Source of the DNA: Candidatus Moraniibacteriota bacterium
Lineage (GTDB): Bacteria > Patescibacteriota > Minisyncoccia > Moranbacterales > UBA1568
DNA length: 64,000 nucleotides
Reading direction: 5' to 3'
Assembly: GCA_016699385.1 (NCBI GenBank)
Contig: CP064974.1
Span: 339,042 to 403,041, forward strand
Of this stretch, positions 32,718 through 58,046 are shown piece by piece. The translations under genes and the position numbers were made by a program. The notes under the pieces were generated by a model. The model saw only the letters and a list, made by a program, of their open reading frames with translations. It made no database searches and was not told the DNA's origin. Every line of letters starts with the position of its first letter. Position 1 is the first letter of the stretch.

Positions 32718-35345
<2,628 letters not shown>

Positions 35346-35354
35346 TCGTAACGT

Positions 35355-35888
35355 ATGATCCACTTTATTACCGGGAACAAAAATAAGTTCGAAGAAGTGA
35401 AAATGATTTTTCCTGATGTGGAACAATTGGATATTGATCTTCCGGAAATTCAAGAAATTGATACGAGAGAAATAATACGGAATAAGCTATCGGAAGCGTT
35501 TCGCTATGCAACTGGAGAGTTCATTGTTGAGGATACCTCTCTTTCTCTCGAGTGCTTAGGCGGGCTGCCCGGACCTCTGATAAAGTGGTTTTCAAGGACT
35601 CTCGGAAATAATGGTTTGGCTGAAATTGTCGGAAAGTTGGGGAATGATAGGGCGGAAGCAAAGACGGTTATCGGATATGCGAGGAGTCGTGAGGAAATCT
35701 ATTTTTTTGAAGGAATACTACAGGGAAGAATAGTGAAACCGAGAGGAGAGACAGCTTTTGGCTGGGATTCGATATTTTTGGCAGATGGTCATAAGAAGAC
35801 TTTTGCAGAAATGAGTCGCGAAGAGAAAAATGCTATCAGCATGAGAAGAAAGACACTTGATAAATTGAGTGAGTTTTTGAGGACATAG
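35355..35888 (+). CDS. rdgB: Non-canonical purine NTP pyrophosphatase (Ham1/RdgB family)
   Basis: 177 aa with an N-terminal TGNKNKxxE motif and the Ham1-family fold signature. Confidence 0.8.
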   Translation: MIHFITGNKNKFEEVKMIFPDVEQLDIDLPEIQEIDTREIIRNKLSEAFRYATGEFIVEDTSLSLECLGGLPGPLIKWFSRTLGNNGLAEIVGKLGNDRAEAKTVIGYARSREEIYFFEGILQGRIVKPRGETAFGWDSIFLADGHKKTFAEMSREEKNAISMRRKTLDKLSEFLRT

Positions 35889-36079
35889 AACTTGTTGTAT
35901 GAGCAAATCCTTCAAGGTTGCGCAATTGGGAGGCAAGGTGATATGAGCAAAAGCCAAAAGAGTTGCTGACGTTCATGGTTTGGGAGTGACGTGGATTATT
36001 CGCGATGTTGTTCTTGGTAACTGAAGCGTCATGGGAGGGAGGTACAATAAGAGAAGGCAAGAGAAGCTGTGTTTTTTCT

Positions 36080-36625
36080 ATGAATTATCGCCGAAAACAA
36101 TTGAGTGCAGAGGATATTGAGCCAGTACTGCTTCGAATACAGCCGTCTCCGAAATACGGTGGCATTGGAGTTTTTGCTCTCCGCGATATTAAAGGGGGTA
36201 CGATATTATGTGATGTTGAGAAAATTAGCGAGGAAGTTTTCGTCCCCTGGGAAGAATTTGCAAAGATAGATGCGGCTACGCGATCGTTTATGATTGATTT
36301 TTGTGCCGAGGACAAGGATGGTTTCTATAGCCCGATTGATCTGAACTATCTCACCATTCCGGGACACATGAATCATCACTGTGAGGCGAATGTAGGATGT
36401 GATGCGGACGATAACTTCGTCGCAATACGAGATATCAAGAGGGGAGAAGAAGTGTGTCTTGATTACGCCTTCGTTATATCCAACCCTGCCTATACTATGA
36501 AATGCGCATGTGATTCCAAGAAATGTCGAGGGATAGTCACAGGAAATGACTGGAAAAACCCCGCCTTCCGGAAAAAGAATTCCAATTTTCTCTCATCAAA
36601 TGTGAGGAAATTTGCAAACAAATAA
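36080..36625 (+). CDS. SET-domain protein (putative protein-lysine methyltransferase) with post-SET Cys cluster
   Basis: Contains NHHCEAN (NHSCxPN-type), EEVCLDY (ELxxDY-type) and the post-SET cluster CACDSKKC. The ORF opens at 36005, but the likely start is the ATG at 36080. Confidence 0.7.
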   Translation: MNYRRKQLSAEDIEPVLLRIQPSPKYGGIGVFALRDIKGGTILCDVEKISEEVFVPWEEFAKIDAATRSFMIDFCAEDKDGFYSPIDLNYLTIPGHMNHHCEANVGCDADDNFVAIRDIKRGEEVCLDYAFVISNPAYTMKCACDSKKCRGIVTGNDWKNPAFRKKNSNFLSSNVRKFANK

Positions 36626-36667
36626 GAGAAAGTTTATTTTTTCCCCACCATTTTTCTTCAAGAGTCT

Positions 36668-36901
36668 ATGAATGATACATTGCTTAAACTTGGGAAATAT
36701 CGTCATTACAAAAACAACAAAGAGTATGAAGTGATTGGTGTAGCGAAACATAGTGAGACACTTGAGAATATGGTTGTATATCGGGCATTGTACGGAAGTG
36801 AGATTTCATCGCTCTGGGTGAGACCGCTCGCTATGTTTTTGGAAGAAGTGGAAGTGAATGGAAAAATGGTTCCAAGATTTGAGTTGTGTGAATTGGCATG
36901 A
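36668..36901 (+). CDS. Small conserved protein (DUF1653-like)
   Basis: 77 aa with the pattern GxYRHYKxxxYxVxGxAxH[TS]ET...VVYxxLYG...WVRP..MF, which I recall as the DUF1653 family. Confidence 0.45.
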   Translation: MNDTLLKLGKYRHYKNNKEYEVIGVAKHSETLENMVVYRALYGSEISSLWVRPLAMFLEEVEVNGKMVPRFELCELA

Positions 36902-37314
36902 CTATGAAGTGTAAAAAATTCTATGCTGGCGGATTTTTCTATAATCCAGTGACAAAAGAAGTATTACTCCACAAGAGAGATTCAAAAACATTGGTAAACC
37001 CGAATAAGTGGGCGTTCTTTGGCGGATTAAATGAAACTGGAGAAGCACCTTTGCAAACATTTTTGCGAGAGATAAAAGAAGAACTGGATGTGAATCTTTT
37101 TCAGGATGCCGTTAGCTGTCTCTGTGATTATTTCAATGAGGAATTACAAACTCATCGATACATATTTTTTGTAGAGAGCTCTTTGAAGAAATCAGCGATG
37201 AATCTTGGCGAAGGAGAAAGTTTCGATTGGATTTCGATTGAGAAAGTTTTTGAATATGACCTTACTAAGAAAACGAGAATGGACTTGAAATTATTTCTTG
37301 AAAAACTTGTTTGA
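36898..37314 (+). CDS. NUDIX hydrolase
   Basis: NUDIX box GGLNETGEAPLQTFLREIKEELDV (Gx5Ex7REUxEExGU). Confidence 0.7.
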   Translation: MTMKCKKFYAGGFFYNPVTKEVLLHKRDSKTLVNPNKWAFFGGLNETGEAPLQTFLREIKEELDVNLFQDAVSCLCDYFNEELQTHRYIFFVESSLKKSAMNLGEGESFDWISIEKVFEYDLTKKTRMDLKLFLEKLV

Positions 37315-37330
37315 AGAAGTAAGAAAATAT

Positions 37331-37642
37331 TATGAAAATCATTCATAAAAATCAGGTAAAGACTTTCAGAAATAATGAGAGCTGCACGGCAACTGAATAT
37401 CTGATGGGAGAGAGTGTGATATAAATAGCGCGTTCCTCGTACTGACGGGGAGATACCCGAGTGCGGGAAAGGTAGTGAACTCGAAATGTAAAGAGTTGGC
37501 GTATGTGATGAAGGGTTTCGGCAGGATTGCTGTTGAGGGAAGTGAAATCAATTGCGAAGAAGGCGGCATGATTTTTATTGAGCCTCATGAAAAATATTTT
37601 TGGGAGGGTACACTAACACTCCTTTTTTCTCATCAAATGTGA
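37331..37642 (+). pseudogene. Cupin-domain gene disrupted by a single-nucleotide frameshift
   Basis: Frame A encodes MKIIHKNQVKTFRNNESCTATEYLMGESVI*, a cupin N-terminus. The -1 frame continues with ...AFLVLTGRYPSAGKVVNSKCKELAYVMKGFGRIAVEGSEINCEEGGMIFIEPHEKYFWEG, the cupin_2 core. The junction is near 37415-37422. Confidence 0.45.
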
Positions 37643-37693
37643 GGAAATTTGCAAACAAAAAATAAGATGAGGCTAAGATGAGATTTGCACCAT

Positions 37694-38212
37694 ATGAGCT
37701 CTATTATCAACATCGAAATAAAAGCGAAGTGCGCGAACCAAGAAACAATTCGGAGAATTTTGAAAGACAGCGGCGCTGACTTTAAGGGAACTGATCATCA
37801 GATTGATACGTATTTCAAAGTGCCGAATGGGCGATTGAAGTTGCGTGAGGGGAATATAGAGAATCATCTCATTTTCTATAATCGCATAGAGACGAAAGGA
37901 CTCAAGGAATCATCGATACTGCTCTATGACTCAACGCCAGGGTCGACGTTGAAGGAAATCCTTTCGAAATCGCTCGGTATTCTTGCTGTCGTAGATAAGC
38001 GGCGGGAGATATACTTTATCGAGAATGTAAAGTTTCATCTCGACCGTGTAGAAGGACTGGGTACGTTTGCCGAGGTAGAAGCAATTGATATTGATGGATC
38101 AATCAGTAAGGAGCAACTTTCGGAACAATGCGATCGATACATGAAGCTCTTCGGTATACAAAAAGACGACCTTATTGCCGCATCGTATAGTGATTTAATT
38201 TTGCAGTCGTGA
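37694..38212 (+). CDS. CYTH-domain protein (class IV adenylate cyclase CyaB / triphosphate tunnel family)
   Basis: N-terminal EIKxK strand (INIEIKAKC), and a C-terminal ...REIYFIENVKFHLDRVEGLGTFAEVEAI... region matching the CyaB-like pattern. Confidence 0.65.
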   Translation: MSSIINIEIKAKCANQETIRRILKDSGADFKGTDHQIDTYFKVPNGRLKLREGNIENHLIFYNRIETKGLKESSILLYDSTPGSTLKEILSKSLGILAVVDKRREIYFIENVKFHLDRVEGLGTFAEVEAIDIDGSISKEQLSEQCDRYMKLFGIQKDDLIAASYSDLILQS

Positions 38213-38284
38213 GCCACCTTGCGGGATCGAACCGCAGACCTGCACGTTACGAGTGTGCCGCTCTACCAACTGAGCTAAGGTGGC
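38212..38284 (-). tRNA. tRNA-Thr (anticodon CGT)
   Basis: Reverse complement folds with acceptor GCCACCT/AGGTGGC, D-arm GCTC-AGTTGGTA-GAGC, anticodon loop CUCGUAA, and T-arm TGCGG-TTCGATC-CCGCA. Coordinates ±2 nt. Confidence 0.8.
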
Positions 38285-38386
38285 GCCTCCTTTTTTGATT
38301 ACAAGGCTCAGTGTAAGTGAAGCGTGGAGAAAAATCAAGGTTTAGGCGATATTTTCAGAAAAGAAGTTCTGTGGTATCTTAGTGGT

Positions 38387-39476
38387 ATGAATGATATTCG
38401 GAATGAGATGGAAACGATGACTCAGAAACTCCTGCATCTGCGGGACTCTCTTTGATGTGGCGGGGAAGTCACAAAGAATTGTTGAGCTGGAGAGAGTGTC
38501 GCAGGCGGAGAATTTCTGGGGGGATGCGCAGGAAGCGGGGCGCGTGATGAAAGAACTTGAGAGGCTTCGCGAGGAGCGCGCGCTTTTCGATCGACTCTCG
38601 AAAGAGCTCGACGATATCCGAGAGCTTTCTGCGATGGAACTCGAGGGGCAGGAAGCAGAGGATGTCGCGTCGCAGTATACGCGGGTTTCCGAGGAAATTG
38701 AGGCGCTCGAGTTCAAGACGCGTCTTGGTGGTCCATATGACAGTCACGATGCTATACTTGCTATCAAGAGTGGCGCGGGCGGTGTGGATGCACAAGACTG
38801 GGCGGAAATGCTCCTTCGCATGTATCTGCGATGGGCAGAACGTCGAGGATTTGTCGCGAGTGTTTTCGAAGAGTCGAGAGGAAACGAGGCGGGTATCAAG
38901 AGTGTGTCGGTCAAGATAGAAGGAGAATACGCATTTGGGTATCTTCGCAGTGAAATGGGTACCCATCGATTGGTCAGACTCTCTCCGTTTAATGCAGACA
39001 ATTTGCGGCAGACGTCGTTTGCCTCGGTGGAAGTTCTGCCGGTTCTCTCGGCGAAAGAGGGAACAGAGATAAAGCCGGAGGATCTCGAGGTGGATACCTA
39101 TCGATCGTCCGGTGCGGGCGGGCAAAATGTCAACAAGACCGAAACCGCTGTCCGTATCCGACATGTTCCGACGGGTATCGTGGTGTCGTGTCAGACCGAG
39201 CGTTCGCAATTGCAAAATCGTGAGAATGCTCTCACTATGCTTCGCGCCAAACTCGAACAGCTGAGACTCCAGGAGGAAGAAGATGAAAAACGCGCGCTTC
39301 GCGGTGAACAGAAAAGTGCCGACTTTGGAAGTCAGATTCGCTCTTATGTCTTGCATCCTTACACGTTGGTCAAGGATCACCGGACGAAATATGAAACACC
39401 GCAAGTGCACGAAGTTCTCGATGGCAAACTTGATGAATTTATGGAAGCCTTTCTTAAGACACAGAGTAGGGAATAA
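38387..39476 (+). CDS. prfB: Peptide chain release factor 2 with programmed +1 ribosomal frameshift
   Basis: ORF 1 (ATG 38387) encodes [22 protein letters not shown] and ends at the in-frame UGA in CTT TGA T (38450-38456). A +1 shift continues into the long RF2 ORF ([13 protein letters not shown]...), which carries the SPF tripeptide (RLSPFN) and GGQ (SGAGGQ). Confidence 0.85.
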
Positions 39477-56351: not shown

Positions 56352-58046
56352 CTATTTCTCCGTGACAAGTGCGTCTGGGTTTGCGTCTTTGGAGAAGGTG
56401 ACGGAATCTTGGGTGAAGGTGCTTTCGTGAATGTCGATGTCTTTTGAAGAGGGGCCTGAAATGACGAGGCAATCTTTGCGGGCGAGGGGGCATCTCGTGT
56501 TCTTGAAGGTGATAGCTGAACTGTTGGCGATATCGAAGACAGAGCCTTTTGTCGGGACGGCGGAAATGGTATCAAATGTGAGAGAATTTGCCTCCTCTAT
56601 CTGGGAGCCCCATTTGGCGAATATTTTGATGTTTTTGAAAGTGATATCGGTAATTGGCTGTTCGATGAGTCCGCTGATTTCTATTGAGCGGTCGGTTTTC
56701 CCGACAGTCATGTTTTCTACATGGATATTGCGGAAAAGGGGGATGGCACCGACACCTTTGATGAAAGAGTTCTCATAGGAAGTAGTGAGCTGGATAGCAG
56801 CGATGGAGGCATAGTCTATCTTGATTCCATCTGCGTAAATGTTTTCAACGATACCACCACGACCTTTTGATGATTTGATGCGAAAGCCGTATTGTACCAT
56901 GTTTGCCGAGAGATTTTCGATGAAAACATTGCGTACATCGCCGGACATCTCACTGCCAATCGCGACGGCGGCATGTGCCTCGAGTATGGAATTATTGCGT
57001 ATGAGGACGTGCTCGGCGGGCATTCGGACACGGAGACCATCTCGGTTTCTGCCGGATTTGAGGACGATGGCATCGTCGCCCGTGCTAAAGACACTGTTTT
57101 CGATGAGGACGTTTTGGGAGGAGTCGAGGGCGACGCCGTCAGTGCTTTGTCCCTCGCTGGTTTCGATATGGACGCCGCGAACAATGATGTTTTTGCTATA
57201 GAGGGGATGAATCGTCCACATGGGACCGTTTTGTATGCTTACCCCTTCTACGAGCACGCGATCACAATTCATAAACTCTATGAATGCTGGGCGCAGAGAA
57301 TCCTTGACTGTTCCGAAGACGCGCTCGGATACGGGGGTGCCGTCATCTCCCATTTGGTAGAGTCTTTTGATGGGCTTGTCCCAGTTGCGCATCGCAGCCC
57401 ACCAGGCAGCTCCTTGACCATCAAGCGTGCCTTCGCCGGTGATAGCCACATTGAAGGCGTTTGCGGTGTAGATGGGCGCTGAGTAGTTGTAGTATTCGAT
57501 GCCTTCGAATCGGGAGAAGACTGCTGGCAAGTATTCTTCGAAGTTGGTGCTAAAGAGAATAGTCGAGCCTTTCTCGAGATGAAGATTGATATTGCTTGCG
57601 AGATGTATAGGACCGGTAAACCAGGTGCCGGGAGGCACGATCACAGTTCCACCGCCAGTACGGGCGCAATCGTCTATTGTTTTCCGAAAGGCTTCTGTAT
57701 TGGAAGTGACACCATCGCTTATGGCGCCATAGTCGACAATCGAGCAGGTATGCTCAGGAAAGCCAACTTCCTCAAGAGTAAATGATGCACCGGAGAGGGT
57801 TTTGAGCGTTGCGACAGATGTCGGGGGTGGGATGAGCTTGGATATATCTGGAAATTCACGAGGAATTTCGGGCGCTTCCACAGAATCAGTATTCTCTGGG
57901 GAAATTTTTTTGGTAAAGACTGTCGATGAGGAACTCAATTCGCGAAGCTGCTCTCCGTAAAGAGTCCATACTCCGAAGAGTACGCTGATAACAAGTCCCC
58001 CCAGAAGGATGAGTATCAATGGCATGCGAAAATTCCCTCGAGGCAT
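56352..58046 (-). CDS. Membrane-anchored glycoside hydrolase family 28-like (polygalacturonase-type) beta-helix protein
   Basis: N-terminal TM anchor. GH28 signature blocks STDG, GDDAIVLKSG (GDDCIAIKSG-type), AIGSEMSG (G.SIGSE-type) and FRIKSSKGRGG (RIK). Confidence 0.7.
   Translation of the reverse strand: MPRGNFRMPLILILLGGLVISVLFGVWTLYGEQLRELSSSSTVFTKKISPENTDSVEAPEIPREFPDISKLIPPPTSVATLKTLSGASFTLEEVGFPEHTCSIVDYGAISDGVTSNTEAFRKTIDDCARTGGGTVIVPPGTWFTGPIHLASNINLHLEKGSTILFSTNFEEYLPAVFSRFEGIEYYNYSAPIYTANAFNVAITGEGTLDGQGAAWWAAMRNWDKPIKRLYQMGDDGTPVSERVFGTVKDSLRPAFIEFMNCDRVLVEGVSIQNGPMWTIHPLYSKNIIVRGVHIETSEGQSTDGVALDSSQNVLIENSVFSTGDDAIVLKSGRNRDGLRVRMPAEHVLIRNNSILEAHAAVAIGSEMSGDVRNVFIENLSANMVQYGFRIKSSKGRGGIVENIYADGIKIDYASIAAIQLTTSYENSFIKGVGAIPLFRNIHVENMTVGKTDRSIEISGLIEQPITDITFKNIKIFAKWGSQIEEANSLTFDTISAVPTKGSVFDIANSSAITFKNTRCPLARKDCLVISGPSSKDIDIHESTFTQDSVTFSKDANPDALVTEK

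What the first reader, a model, noticed from the sequence alone, without database searches (positions are those of the whole stretch)
35889..38284. Low-GC accessory islet abutting the 3' end of tRNA-Thr
The ~2.3 kb between rdgB and the minus-strand tRNA-Thr is visibly more AT-rich than the flanking housekeeping genes. Its cargo is not core: a SET-domain methyltransferase, a DUF1653-like ORF, a NUDIX hydrolase, a frameshifted cupin and a CYTH (CyaB-like) protein. The block ends exactly at the tRNA 3' end (the CYTH stop is 0-1 nt from the tRNA), which is the classic geometry of tRNA-targeted integration. No integrase remains, so this would be a decayed island.
Basis: partly seen in the sequence, partly recalled or inferred. 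Interest (0 to 1): 0.7.

Follow-up and report, generated by a model that had tools for sequence, protein, structure and literature searches.

The report
Shuffled small-gene interval, not a tRNA island
The AT-rich stretch between secA and prfB in this Moranbacteria (candidate phyla radiation, CPR) genome is an ordinary recombination hot spot where small lineage-typical enzyme genes are swapped between relatives; it is not the remnant of an element that integrated into tRNA-Thr.

Summary
The sequence-level observation holds. The block is AT-rich (GC 0.41, lowest 2.6% of same-size windows). Pfam confirms the SET, DUF1653, NUDIX and CYTH genes. The cupin is broken, and the CYTH stop overlaps the 3' end of tRNA-Thr by 1 nt.

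The tRNA-island interpretation does not hold:
- No integrase gene and no partial tRNA repeat are present.
- In relatives (SecA 86-91% identical) CYTH-tRNA-Thr-prfB-ftsE-ftsX is conserved, with the identical tRNA on the other strand. The abutment therefore comes from a ~133-bp inversion of tRNA plus promoter.
- SET directly follows secA in relatives down to 60% SET identity.
- rdgB, taken as a housekeeping flank, is itself part of the variable, low-GC block. A peptide deformylase (def) gene remnant follows it.

Only a 1.04-kb piece (DUF1653, NUDIX, truncated cupin) is strain-specific. It is bracketed by a 45-nt direct duplication of the SET 3' end. A contig ~95% identical to the window has SET-CYTH with one repeat copy, an exact empty site. 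The best mechanism is homology-anchored illegitimate recombination.

The GC dip affects this gene class in all four relatives measured. The region is ordinary, but a good micro-evolutionary record.

The parts
32718..35345 (+). secA, the conserved left anchor of the variable interval
   Evidence: The 875-aa ORF is 91%, 88%, 86% and 71% identical to SecA in L085, L182, L166 and L169. GC is 0.501.
35355..35888 (+). rdgB (ITPase/Ham1), part of the variable low-GC block rather than a stable flank
   Evidence: Pfam Ham1p_like, E 2.5e-45. It passes the TIGR00042 cut-off. GC is 0.410 and codon-usage z is -3.0. It is absent after secA in L085, L166, L169 and L183. It occupies other positions in the same interval in L179 and L182.
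35899..36042 (+). Peptide deformylase (def) pseudogene remnant: the first ~42 codons, with an in-frame TGA
   Evidence: tblastn with L085 Def residues 1-44 gives 46% identity, E 7e-5. The translation is MSKSFKVAQLGGKVI*AKAKRV.... L085 has an intact def (Pfam E 1e-43) directly upstream of CYTH.
36080..36625 (+). SET-domain protein gene, a framework gene of the clade
   Evidence: Pfam SET, E 2e-11. Homologues at 93%, 81%, 76% and 60% identity sit in the same interval; those in L183, L166 and L169 directly follow secA. GC3 is 0.425, within 1 sd of the mean.
36586..36630 (+). Repeat copy R1: the last ~12 codons of SET, its stop codon and a few more bases
   Evidence: 38/40 identity over 40 nt, with a 32-nt exact core that occurs only twice in the window (0 expected). 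The three-way alignment with L165 extends the repeat to about 45 nt. The encoded tail aligns with the C-terminal tails of other family members, so R is native SET sequence.
36631..37622 (+). Strain-specific cassette: DUF1653 (36668-36901), NUDIX (36898-37314) and a cupin pseudogene (37333 to about 37630)
   Evidence: Pfam matches. GC is 0.378, the lowest part of the block. The cassette is absent from L165, which is ~95% identical on both sides. The cupin is frameshifted and stops at residue 103 of 116 of the L085 cupin, at 46% identity. NUDIX has no relative above 71% identity apart from the source genome.
37623..37670 (+). Repeat copy R2: a displaced, non-coding copy of the SET 3' end, fused to the truncated cupin and followed by the native SET-CYTH spacer
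   Evidence: From R2 rightwards the window is collinear with L165 708-1321 at 95.9% identity. Position 5 of R2 is T, as in the single L165 copy; R1 has C there. R2 also carries an extra AAA.
37694..38212 (+). CYTH (CyaB-like) gene, a framework gene next to tRNA-Thr/prfB in relatives; its last codons and stop were remodelled by the inversion
   Evidence: Pfam CYTH, E 3.7e-15. It scores 52.5 bits for TIGR00318 cyaB, just under the 57.95-bit cut-off. It is 95% identical to the L165 copy and 76% identical to the L085 and L166 copies, all at the same position. GC3 is 0.477, equal to the window mean. Its C-terminus reads LILQS*, against LILGKSED* in L085.
38212..38284 (-). tRNA-Thr(CGT)
   Evidence: ARAGORN and Rfam tRNA, 61.2 bits. 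It is 100% identical to the tRNA in L085, L166 and L179, where it lies on the plus strand.
38210..38342 (-). Inverted segment of about 133 bp: tRNA-Thr plus its upstream promoter-like region (-35 TTGATT, 17-nt spacer, -10 TACACT on the minus strand)
   Evidence: The reverse complement of the window aligns with L085 and L166 from the CTTGATT box through the tRNA and 2 nt of 3' trailer. L165 shows the same CYTH/tRNA junction. No inverted repeats lie at the breakpoints. The promoter is inferred from sequence only and falls below the scanner's threshold.
38389..39476 (+). prfB, the conserved right anchor, with a programmed +1 frameshift at CTT TGA (38450-38455)
   Evidence: Pfam PCRF plus RF-1. 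The two ORFs are 38324-38455 and 38457-39476. It is 88% and 83% identical to PrfB in L085 and L166. The frameshift site is conserved in L085 and L166.

Best explanation
The secA-to-prfB interval of this Candidatus Moraniibacteriota genome is a flexible gene neighbourhood. In its clade a limited repertoire of small enzyme genes is gained, lost and reshuffled here by general and illegitimate recombination. The repertoire seen in this interval or just downstream of secA comprises SET, RdgB, NUDIX, HD/YfbR-like, ASCH, cupin, DUF1653, DUF5674, Def, HAD, Fic and CYTH.

SET (next to secA) and CYTH (next to tRNA-Thr/prfB) are recurrent, positionally conserved framework genes. The window records four separate local events:
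1. rdgB plus a def 5' fragment now lie between secA and SET.
2. A 1.04-kb DNA piece (DUF1653-NUDIX-cupin, cut inside the cupin) was inserted between SET and CYTH. The most likely route was homology-facilitated illegitimate recombination. The SET gene would have acted as the homologous anchor, and the other end would have joined at a T-run 45 nt before the end of the resident SET. That pushed the resident SET tail downstream as the non-coding copy R2.
3. The cupin then decayed further by a frameshift.
4. A segment of about 133 bp holding tRNA-Thr(CGT) and its promoter was inverted. The CYTH reading frame now terminates on the complement of the tRNA's discriminator base plus two trailer bases.

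The low GC reflects the composition of this class of short, weakly constrained genes throughout the clade. Only the cassette and rdgB are mildly atypical.

Shown: the gene order in relatives, the empty site, the repeat, the pseudogene remnants, the inversion, and the absence of att sites and integrase. Inferred: the direction of each event and the recombination mechanism.
For: Source and relatives:
- NUDIX and RdgB match NCBI proteins of a Candidatus Moraniibacteriota MAG with a 1.11-Mb contig.

Backbone and variable content:
- L085: secA | HD, cupin, DUF5674, unknown, def | CYTH, tRNA-Thr(+), prfB, ftsE, ftsX, tRNA-Gln.
- L166: secA, SET | DUF5674, unknown | CYTH, tRNA-Thr(+), prfB, and onward.
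- L183: secA, SET with an altered tail | weak NUDIX-like remnant | CYTH.
- L179: DUF1653, DUF5674, unknown, rdgB, HAD | tRNA-Thr(+), prfB, and onward.
- L182: secA, Fic, rdgB.
- L169: secA, SET, ASCH, NUDIX.

Empty site:
- L165 matches window 36076-36627 at 94.9% and 37623-38239 at 95.9%, through a single repeat copy.

Repeat:
- The 32-nt exact core occurs twice in the window, with 0 expected by chance.
- It encodes the native SET tail.
- R2 shares its position-5 base with the L165 copy, as expected if R2 is the resident copy.
- The junction lies in a T-run present on both the cupin side and the SET side.

tRNA:
- The sequence is identical in four genomes. It is on the plus strand in three and inverted together with its promoter in the window and L165.

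Island hallmarks absent:
- No att-like tRNA repeat and no recombinase domain.

Composition:
- The small genes of the interval are 0.40-0.50 GC, against 0.50-0.56 for secA, prfB and ftsE, in L085, L166, L169 and L179. One small unnamed ORF is the exception, at 0.53-0.56 in L085, L166 and L179.
- In the window, CYTH GC3 equals the mean and SET is within 1 sd. Codon-usage z is -1.25 for CYTH, -1.66 for SET, -2.55 for NUDIX and -3.0 for rdgB, and six genes elsewhere in the window are more deviant.

Precedent for the mechanism:
- PMC3240628 describes homology-facilitated illegitimate recombination and, as an alternative, circularisation followed by a single crossover.
- PMC5361080 proposes displacement of a resident 3' end by an incoming module.
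Against: - No genome with a contiguous SET-DUF1653-NUDIX-intact cupin (the postulated donor arrangement) was found. The nearest NUDIX contexts are DUF1653-ASCH-NUDIX and NUDIX-NUDIX.
- Mismatches between the window and L165 are evenly spread along SET, so no mosaic boundary marks a crossover.
- The polarity of the SET-CYTH polymorphism is unresolved. L165 could have lost the cassette by recombination between R1 and R2.
- L165 is a 1.3-kb Logan contig. A path across a 32-nt repeat could in principle be an assembly shortcut, although its different upstream gene (a DUF1653 only 58% identical) argues that it is a genuinely different haplotype.
- Relatives are metagenomic contigs without a phylogeny, so calling a state ancestral rests on outgroup counting (3 of 3 for tRNA orientation).
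- The inversion has no repeats at its ends, so its mechanism is unknown.
Confidence: 0.72

Rival explanations
1. One reading: the whole 35.9-38.2 kb block is the decayed cargo of an integrase-mediated island that inserted at the 3' end of tRNA-Thr(CGT).
For: The tRNA 3' end faces and touches the block. The block has low GC. In relative L085 this same tRNA carries a 79-nt insertion bounded by a perfect 19-nt duplication of its 3' end, so the tRNA has probably been an integration target somewhere in the clade.
Against: No tRNA-derived repeat and no integrase are present in the window. CYTH is syntenic with tRNA-Thr/prfB in L085 and L166, on the tRNA's 5' side. SET is syntenic with secA. The abutment is explained by a 133-bp inversion. 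The L085 scar lies on the prfB side of the tRNA, not the CYTH side.
Confidence: 0.04
2. The 1.04-kb cassette is the remnant of a site-specific integrative element whose attachment site is the 3' end of the SET gene. The 45-nt repeat would be attL/attR, and the element would carry a replacement gene tail, as many prophages do. The integrase would since have been deleted.
For: The direct repeats consist exactly of a gene's 3' end plus its stop codon, so the target gene stays intact. A clean empty site exists. L183 has a different rearrangement starting at nearly the same point of SET.
Against: No recombinase or fragment of one lies in the cassette. A truncated cupin is fused directly to R2 in a T-run, which looks like an illegitimate junction rather than an element end. 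The repeat was not found in any other fetched locus apart from the same-strain contigs. The SET tail is poorly conserved, so the similar breakpoint in L183 may only reflect loss of alignable sequence.
Confidence: 0.1
3. Same outcome by a different route: a linear fragment from a sister strain, running from 45 nt before the SET stop to mid-cupin, circularised and then integrated by a single RecA-dependent crossover within the 45-nt homology.
For: This gives exactly R-cassette-R with the cupin end joined to the start of R. Circularisation followed by a single crossover is a documented fate of incoming linear DNA (PMC3240628).
Against: 45 nt is close to the minimum for efficient RecA-dependent recombination (general knowledge). 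It needs the same unseen donor arrangement. Present data cannot separate it from the anchor-plus-illegitimate-join route.
Confidence: 0.12

Closest known systems
Flexible (replacement/additive) genomic islands at fixed positions between conserved core genes in prokaryotic pangenomes
   Same: The flanks are conserved (secA on one side; tRNA-Thr-prfB-ftsE-ftsX-tRNA-Gln on the other). Gene content between them differs among relatives. There is a strain-level presence/absence difference. GC is lower than in the core genes.
   Different: It is very small (2-3 kb). It carries no mobility genes. It is filled with lineage-typical small enzyme genes, several of them nucleotide-hydrolysing (RdgB, NUDIX, HD), rather than surface, defence or niche-specific genes. 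Two of its genes (SET, CYTH) are themselves positionally conserved.
Homology-facilitated illegitimate recombination and the displacement model for effector-immunity and Rhs loci (PMC3240628; PMC5361080)
   Same: A conserved upstream gene could serve as the anchor. The incoming module sits directly after it. The resident 3' end is shifted downstream and kept as an orphan fragment (R2). The far junction lies at a short microhomology.
   Different: Only one displacement is visible, not an array. The cargo is not a toxin-immunity pair. The donor arrangement has not been observed, and competence of this organism is unknown.
tRNA-targeted genomic islands and prophages (tyrosine-integrase att sites in tRNA 3' ends)
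   Same: A variable AT-rich block touches a tRNA 3' end. A 19-nt duplication of that tRNA end exists in relative L085.
   Different: The window has no integrase and no att duplication. The gene touching the tRNA is syntenic in relatives. The contact was created by inversion of the tRNA.

Membership tests
tRNA-targeted integrative island | Integrase/recombinase gene, or a remnant of one, inside the block, usually next to the tRNA | tested here: not met
   All ORFs were assigned to Ham1, SET, DUF1653, NUDIX, cupin or CYTH. The three-frame translation of the only unassigned stretch shows cupin fragments only. The 35889-36079 spacer is a def remnant.
tRNA-targeted integrative island | Direct repeat of the tRNA 3' end at the distal boundary (attR) | tested here: not met
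   There is no match to 23 nt of the tRNA 3' end at up to 3 mismatches anywhere in the window. The longest shared word in 35.3-38.2 kb is 9 nt, and it lies on the opposite strand.
tRNA-targeted integrative island | Relatives show an empty site in which the tRNA 3' end is followed by the core gene beyond the island | tested here: not met
   L085 and L166 have CYTH next to the tRNA, and L085, L166 and L179 all carry the tRNA in the opposite orientation. The only empty site found is SET-CYTH.
tRNA-targeted integrative island | Composition foreign to the host genome | tested here: inconclusive
   The block is in the lowest 2.6% for GC. However, the same gene class is low-GC in all four relatives measured. 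Codon-usage deviation is moderate (z -0.1 to -3.0) and is exceeded by six other genes in the window.
Flexible genomic island / recombination hot spot | Conserved flanking genes in related genomes | tested here: met
   secA is 86-91% identical. prfB, ftsE and ftsX are 77-94% identical. tRNA-Thr is 100% identical, and tRNA-Gln(CTG) is present in L085, L166 and L179.
Flexible genomic island / recombination hot spot | Different gene content between the same flanks in different lineages, including close strains | tested here: met
   Six different arrangements were seen (window, L165, L183, L166, L085, L179).
Insertion by homology-facilitated illegitimate recombination | Homologous anchor on one side and an illegitimate junction at a microhomology on the other, with resident sequence beyond the junction retained | tested here: inconclusive
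   The retained resident tail (R2) and the T-run at the junction fit this route. No crossover point is detectable in SET and no donor arrangement was found.
Insertion by homology-facilitated illegitimate recombination | Natural transformation or another route that delivers linear DNA into this organism | not testable with these tools
   Only a 64-kb window of an uncultured organism is available.
Anti-phage defence island | Genes matching known defence-system models | tested here: not met
   PADLOC gave only a generic NUDIX hit to the candidate model PDC-S07 (E 6e-12). There were no hits for RdgB, SET, DUF1653 or CYTH.

The most novel reading that the evidence does not exclude
The tRNA-Thr(CGT) 3' end may be an active recombinase target in this clade. 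The perfect 19-nt duplication in L085 is a footprint of such an event. The 133-bp flip of tRNA plus promoter in the window lineage could be a recombinase-catalysed inversion that left no element behind. That would be a site-specific 'tRNA flip' that rewires the end of a neighbouring gene and sets up convergent transcription. Alternatively, the 45-nt SET tail could be the attachment site of a minimal, integrase-less cassette that is mobilised in trans.
Probability: 0.06. Interest if true: 0.5.

Novelty: new member of a known kind. Interest (0 to 1): 0.27.

Why it matters
The result corrects a plausible but wrong annotation: touching a tRNA does not make a block a tRNA island. It also gives a compact, well-resolved example of how very small CPR genomes (about 1.1 Mb here) turn over accessory genes without recognisable mobile-element machinery. 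The traces left are short homology anchors, illegitimate joins, gene-tail duplications, pseudogene stubs and a tRNA inversion. It shows that a GC dip can mark a gene class across a whole clade rather than recent foreign DNA. Nothing here changes current understanding, so its value is as a curated case and as a caution for automated island callers.

Tried and rejected
- Exact-protein look-ups with the longest-ORF starts of SET and CYTH, and with the shorter SET start, found nothing. The shorter CYTH start worked, but returned only same-strain contigs.
- A SecA-anchored scan of GTDB representative genomes gave nearest relatives at only 65-67% identity, with no shared gene order downstream and no tRNA there. 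It was uninformative for synteny.
- A search for a tRNA-Thr attR found none.
- A search for the 45-nt repeat elsewhere in the window and in 164 fetched loci found it only in same-strain contigs.
- Rfam found nothing except the tRNA.
- The promoter/terminator scan gave nothing significant in the block; the inverted tRNA promoter is below its threshold.
- The defence-island reading was rejected.
- An integron-cassette reading was considered and dropped without a dedicated fold. The repeat is coding sequence of SET, the repeat search listed no inverted repeat within it, and no intI-like gene is present.
- A test for a mosaic (crossover) signature in SET against L165 showed evenly spread mismatches.
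- A search for the donor arrangement through NUDIX homologue contexts found only loosely similar neighbourhoods.
- A check for a tRNA-Gln att repeat, for the neighbouring low-GC block, found none.
Full report
**What is in the window.** All genes from secA to ftsX are on the plus strand. The order is as follows.
- secA, 32718-35345.
- rdgB, 35355-35888.
- A 190-nt spacer.
- SET, 36080-36625.
- DUF1653, 36668-36901.
- NUDIX, 36898-37314.
- Cupin fragments, 37333 to about 37642.
- CYTH, 37694-38212.
- tRNA-Thr(CGT) on the minus strand, 38212-38284.
- prfB with its programmed +1 frameshift, 38389-39476.
- ftsE and ftsX (FtsE/FtsX homologues; family names from the identical contig L001).
- tRNA-Gln(CTG), 41298-41370.

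The gene families were confirmed with Pfam and the tRNA with Rfam. NUDIX and RdgB match NCBI proteins from a Candidatus Moraniibacteriota MAG with a 1,111,322-nt contig, which identifies the source organism.

**Checking the observation.**
- The claimed interval has GC 0.411. Same-size windows average 0.473 (sd 0.026), and only 2.6% are as low.
- Per-gene GC is rdgB 0.410, SET 0.432, DUF1653 0.389, NUDIX 0.350 and CYTH 0.424. The gene mean is 0.467 (sd 0.045).
- At the third codon position CYTH (0.477) equals the window mean and SET (0.425) is within one sd. Only NUDIX, DUF1653 and rdgB are low.
- A length-corrected codon-usage test gave z = -3.0 (rdgB), -2.55 (NUDIX), -1.66 (SET), -1.25 (CYTH) and -0.09 (DUF1653). 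Six genes elsewhere in the window are more deviant.
- The cupin is frameshifted near 37420. It also ends at residue 103 of 116 of an intact homologue.
- Independent assemblies from other samples (L001, L003) are 99.94% identical across the block. The arrangement and the frameshift are therefore real.
- The CYTH stop codon (38210-38212) overlaps the tRNA discriminator base by one nucleotide.

**Tests of tRNA-targeted integration.**
- No copy of the tRNA 3' end exists in the window apart from the tRNA itself. The longest shared word in 35.3-38.2 kb is 9 nt.
- No recombinase domain is present.

**Related genomes.**
- GTDB representative genomes were too distant to help. Their SecA is at most 67% identical and gene order is not shared.
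- Metagenome contigs supplied the informative relatives.
- L085 (SecA 91%, PrfB 88%, FtsE 94%): secA, HD hydrolase, intact cupin, DUF5674, unknown gene, def, CYTH (76%), tRNA-Thr(CGT) on the plus strand, prfB, ftsE, ftsX, tRNA-Gln.
- L166 (SecA 86%): secA, SET (76%), DUF5674, unknown gene, CYTH (76%), tRNA-Thr on the plus strand, prfB, ftsE, ftsX, tRNA-Gln.
- L183 (SET 81%, CYTH 80%): secA, SET with a replaced tail, a weak NUDIX-like remnant, CYTH.
- L169 (SecA 71%, SET 60%): secA, SET, ASCH, NUDIX, and further genes.
- L179 (RdgB 82%): DUF1653, DUF5674, unknown gene, rdgB, HAD, tRNA-Thr on the plus strand, prfB, and onward.
- L182 (SecA 88%, RdgB 80%): secA, Fic, rdgB.
- More distant NUDIX homologues also lie downstream of secA (L175, L176).

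These arrangements lead to four conclusions.
1. SET next to secA, and CYTH next to tRNA-Thr/prfB, are recurrent framework positions.
2. The content between them, and the presence of rdgB, varies from lineage to lineage.
3. The varying genes come from a limited repertoire of small enzyme genes that recurs across these relatives.
4. In L085, L166, L169 and L179 these small genes are 0.40-0.50 GC, with one exception. Their secA, prfB and ftsE are 0.50-0.56.

The exception is a small unnamed ORF at 0.53-0.56 in L085, L166 and L179. The GC dip is therefore largely a property of the gene class across the clade.

**The tRNA junction.**
- The tRNA sequence is 100% identical in the window, L085, L166 and L179. 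It is on the plus strand in all three relatives.
- The reverse complement of window 38210 to about 38342 aligns with the relatives from a CTTGATT box through the tRNA plus two trailer bases. The box is a -35-like hexamer, followed 17 nt later by TACACT or TATAAT.
- L165, which is ~95% identical to the window, has the same inverted junction. The inversion is therefore fixed in this sub-lineage and is not an assembly error.
- CYTH ends LILQS* in the window and LILGKSED* in L085. Its TGA is the complement of the tRNA discriminator base plus two trailer bases.
- The terminator hairpin that follows the tRNA in L166 and L085 is missing in the window.
- No inverted repeats flank the segment, so the mechanism of the flip is unknown.
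- The '0-1 nt abutment' that motivated the finding is a by-product of this inversion.

**The strain-specific cassette.**
- A repeat search found a 40-nt direct repeat (38/40) at 36586-36625 and 37623-37662.
- Its 32-nt exact core occurs exactly twice in the window, with none expected by chance.
- L165 matches window 36076-36627 at 94.9% and 37623-38239 at 95.9%, through a single copy of the repeat. In that strain SET is followed directly by CYTH.
- The three-way alignment sets the duplicated unit at about 45 nt. It comprises the last ~12 codons of SET, its stop codon, and a few more bases.
- The encoded tail aligns with the tails of other SET homologues, so the repeat is native SET sequence.
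- The right-hand copy (R2) is fused to a cupin gene that lacks its last ~13 codons. The join lies in a run of T present on both sides.
- R2 shares its position-5 base with the L165 copy, whereas R1 differs there. R2 also has an extra AAA.
- The cassette has the lowest GC of the block (0.378). Its NUDIX has no relative above 71% identity other than the source genome.

**Most likely mechanism.** A linear fragment from a related genome carried the end of SET, DUF1653, NUDIX and part of a cupin. It recombined homologously within SET and joined illegitimately at the T-run 45 nt before the resident SET stop. That shifted the resident tail downstream as R2. This route, and the alternative of circularisation followed by a single crossover, are documented (PMC3240628). 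The same logic has been proposed for orphaned 3' ends at toxin loci (PMC5361080).

There are weaknesses:
- No donor arrangement was found.
- No crossover signature is visible in SET.
- L165 might instead have lost the cassette through R1/R2 recombination.
- L165 is a short de Bruijn graph contig. Its different upstream gene (a DUF1653 only 58% identical) argues that it is a genuine separate haplotype.

**Other scars.** The spacer between rdgB and SET holds the first ~42 codons of a peptide deformylase gene with an in-frame stop. L085 has an intact def immediately upstream of CYTH. Counting the broken cupin, the orphan SET tail and the flipped tRNA as well, four independent rearrangement scars lie within 2.4 kb.

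**Verdict.** The sequence-level observation is largely right. It is a small flexible interval between conserved genes, filled with small enzyme genes that recur across its relatives. The homologue hits that carry an organism name are from Patescibacteria/CPR lineages. One 1-kb piece is clearly strain-specific. tRNA-Thr was not the insertion target. This is a new instance of a known kind of genome plasticity and is of modest interest.

Noticed in passing
window 41371-43900 (just 3' of tRNA-Gln(CTG), 41298-41370): This is the better candidate for a tRNA-adjacent islet. It contains the lowest-GC gene of the window (41399-42067, GC 0.32, no Pfam family), and three consecutive genes have strongly deviant codon usage (z -4.1, -3.7, -4.4). 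Nucleotide homology to L166 stops exactly at the tRNA-Gln 3' end, and the window's downstream genes have no homologues in L166, L179 or L085. In L179 that position holds a large serine recombinase and a REP_ORF2-G2P protein. No tRNA-Gln partial repeat was found in the window.
   Followed up: partly
L085 10631-10728: A 79-nt insertion lies directly after tRNA-Thr(CGT), bounded by a perfect 19-nt direct repeat of the tRNA 3' end (GATCCCGCAAGGTGGCTCA). It is absent from L166. It looks like an att-type footprint of an integration at this tRNA in a sister lineage.
   Followed up: partly
window 38389-39476: prfB carries the classical programmed +1 frameshift site CTT TGA at 38450-38455. The site is conserved in L085 and L166.
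   Followed up: partly
L183 857-1110: In this relative (SET 81% identical) the SET tail diverges from about residue 166 onward. The SET-CYTH spacer encodes, in another reading frame, a C-terminal NUDIX-like remnant (Pfam E 0.003, below the cut-off). This is an independent rearrangement at the same end of SET.
   Followed up: partly
window 56352-58046 (minus strand): This ORF has the most deviant codon usage in the window (z -6.3), although its GC (0.50) is ordinary. It was not examined further.
   Followed up: no
window 41399-42067: There is a weak PADLOC hit to a Cas12c model (E 3.6e-4, 60 residues of a 1035-position profile). It is most likely spurious.
   Followed up: no
metagenome loci L086-L164: CYTH proteins 58-71% identical to the window's are very common in metagenome contigs and sit in many unrelated contexts, often near tRNA genes. 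Only L085 shares the prfB context.
   Followed up: partly
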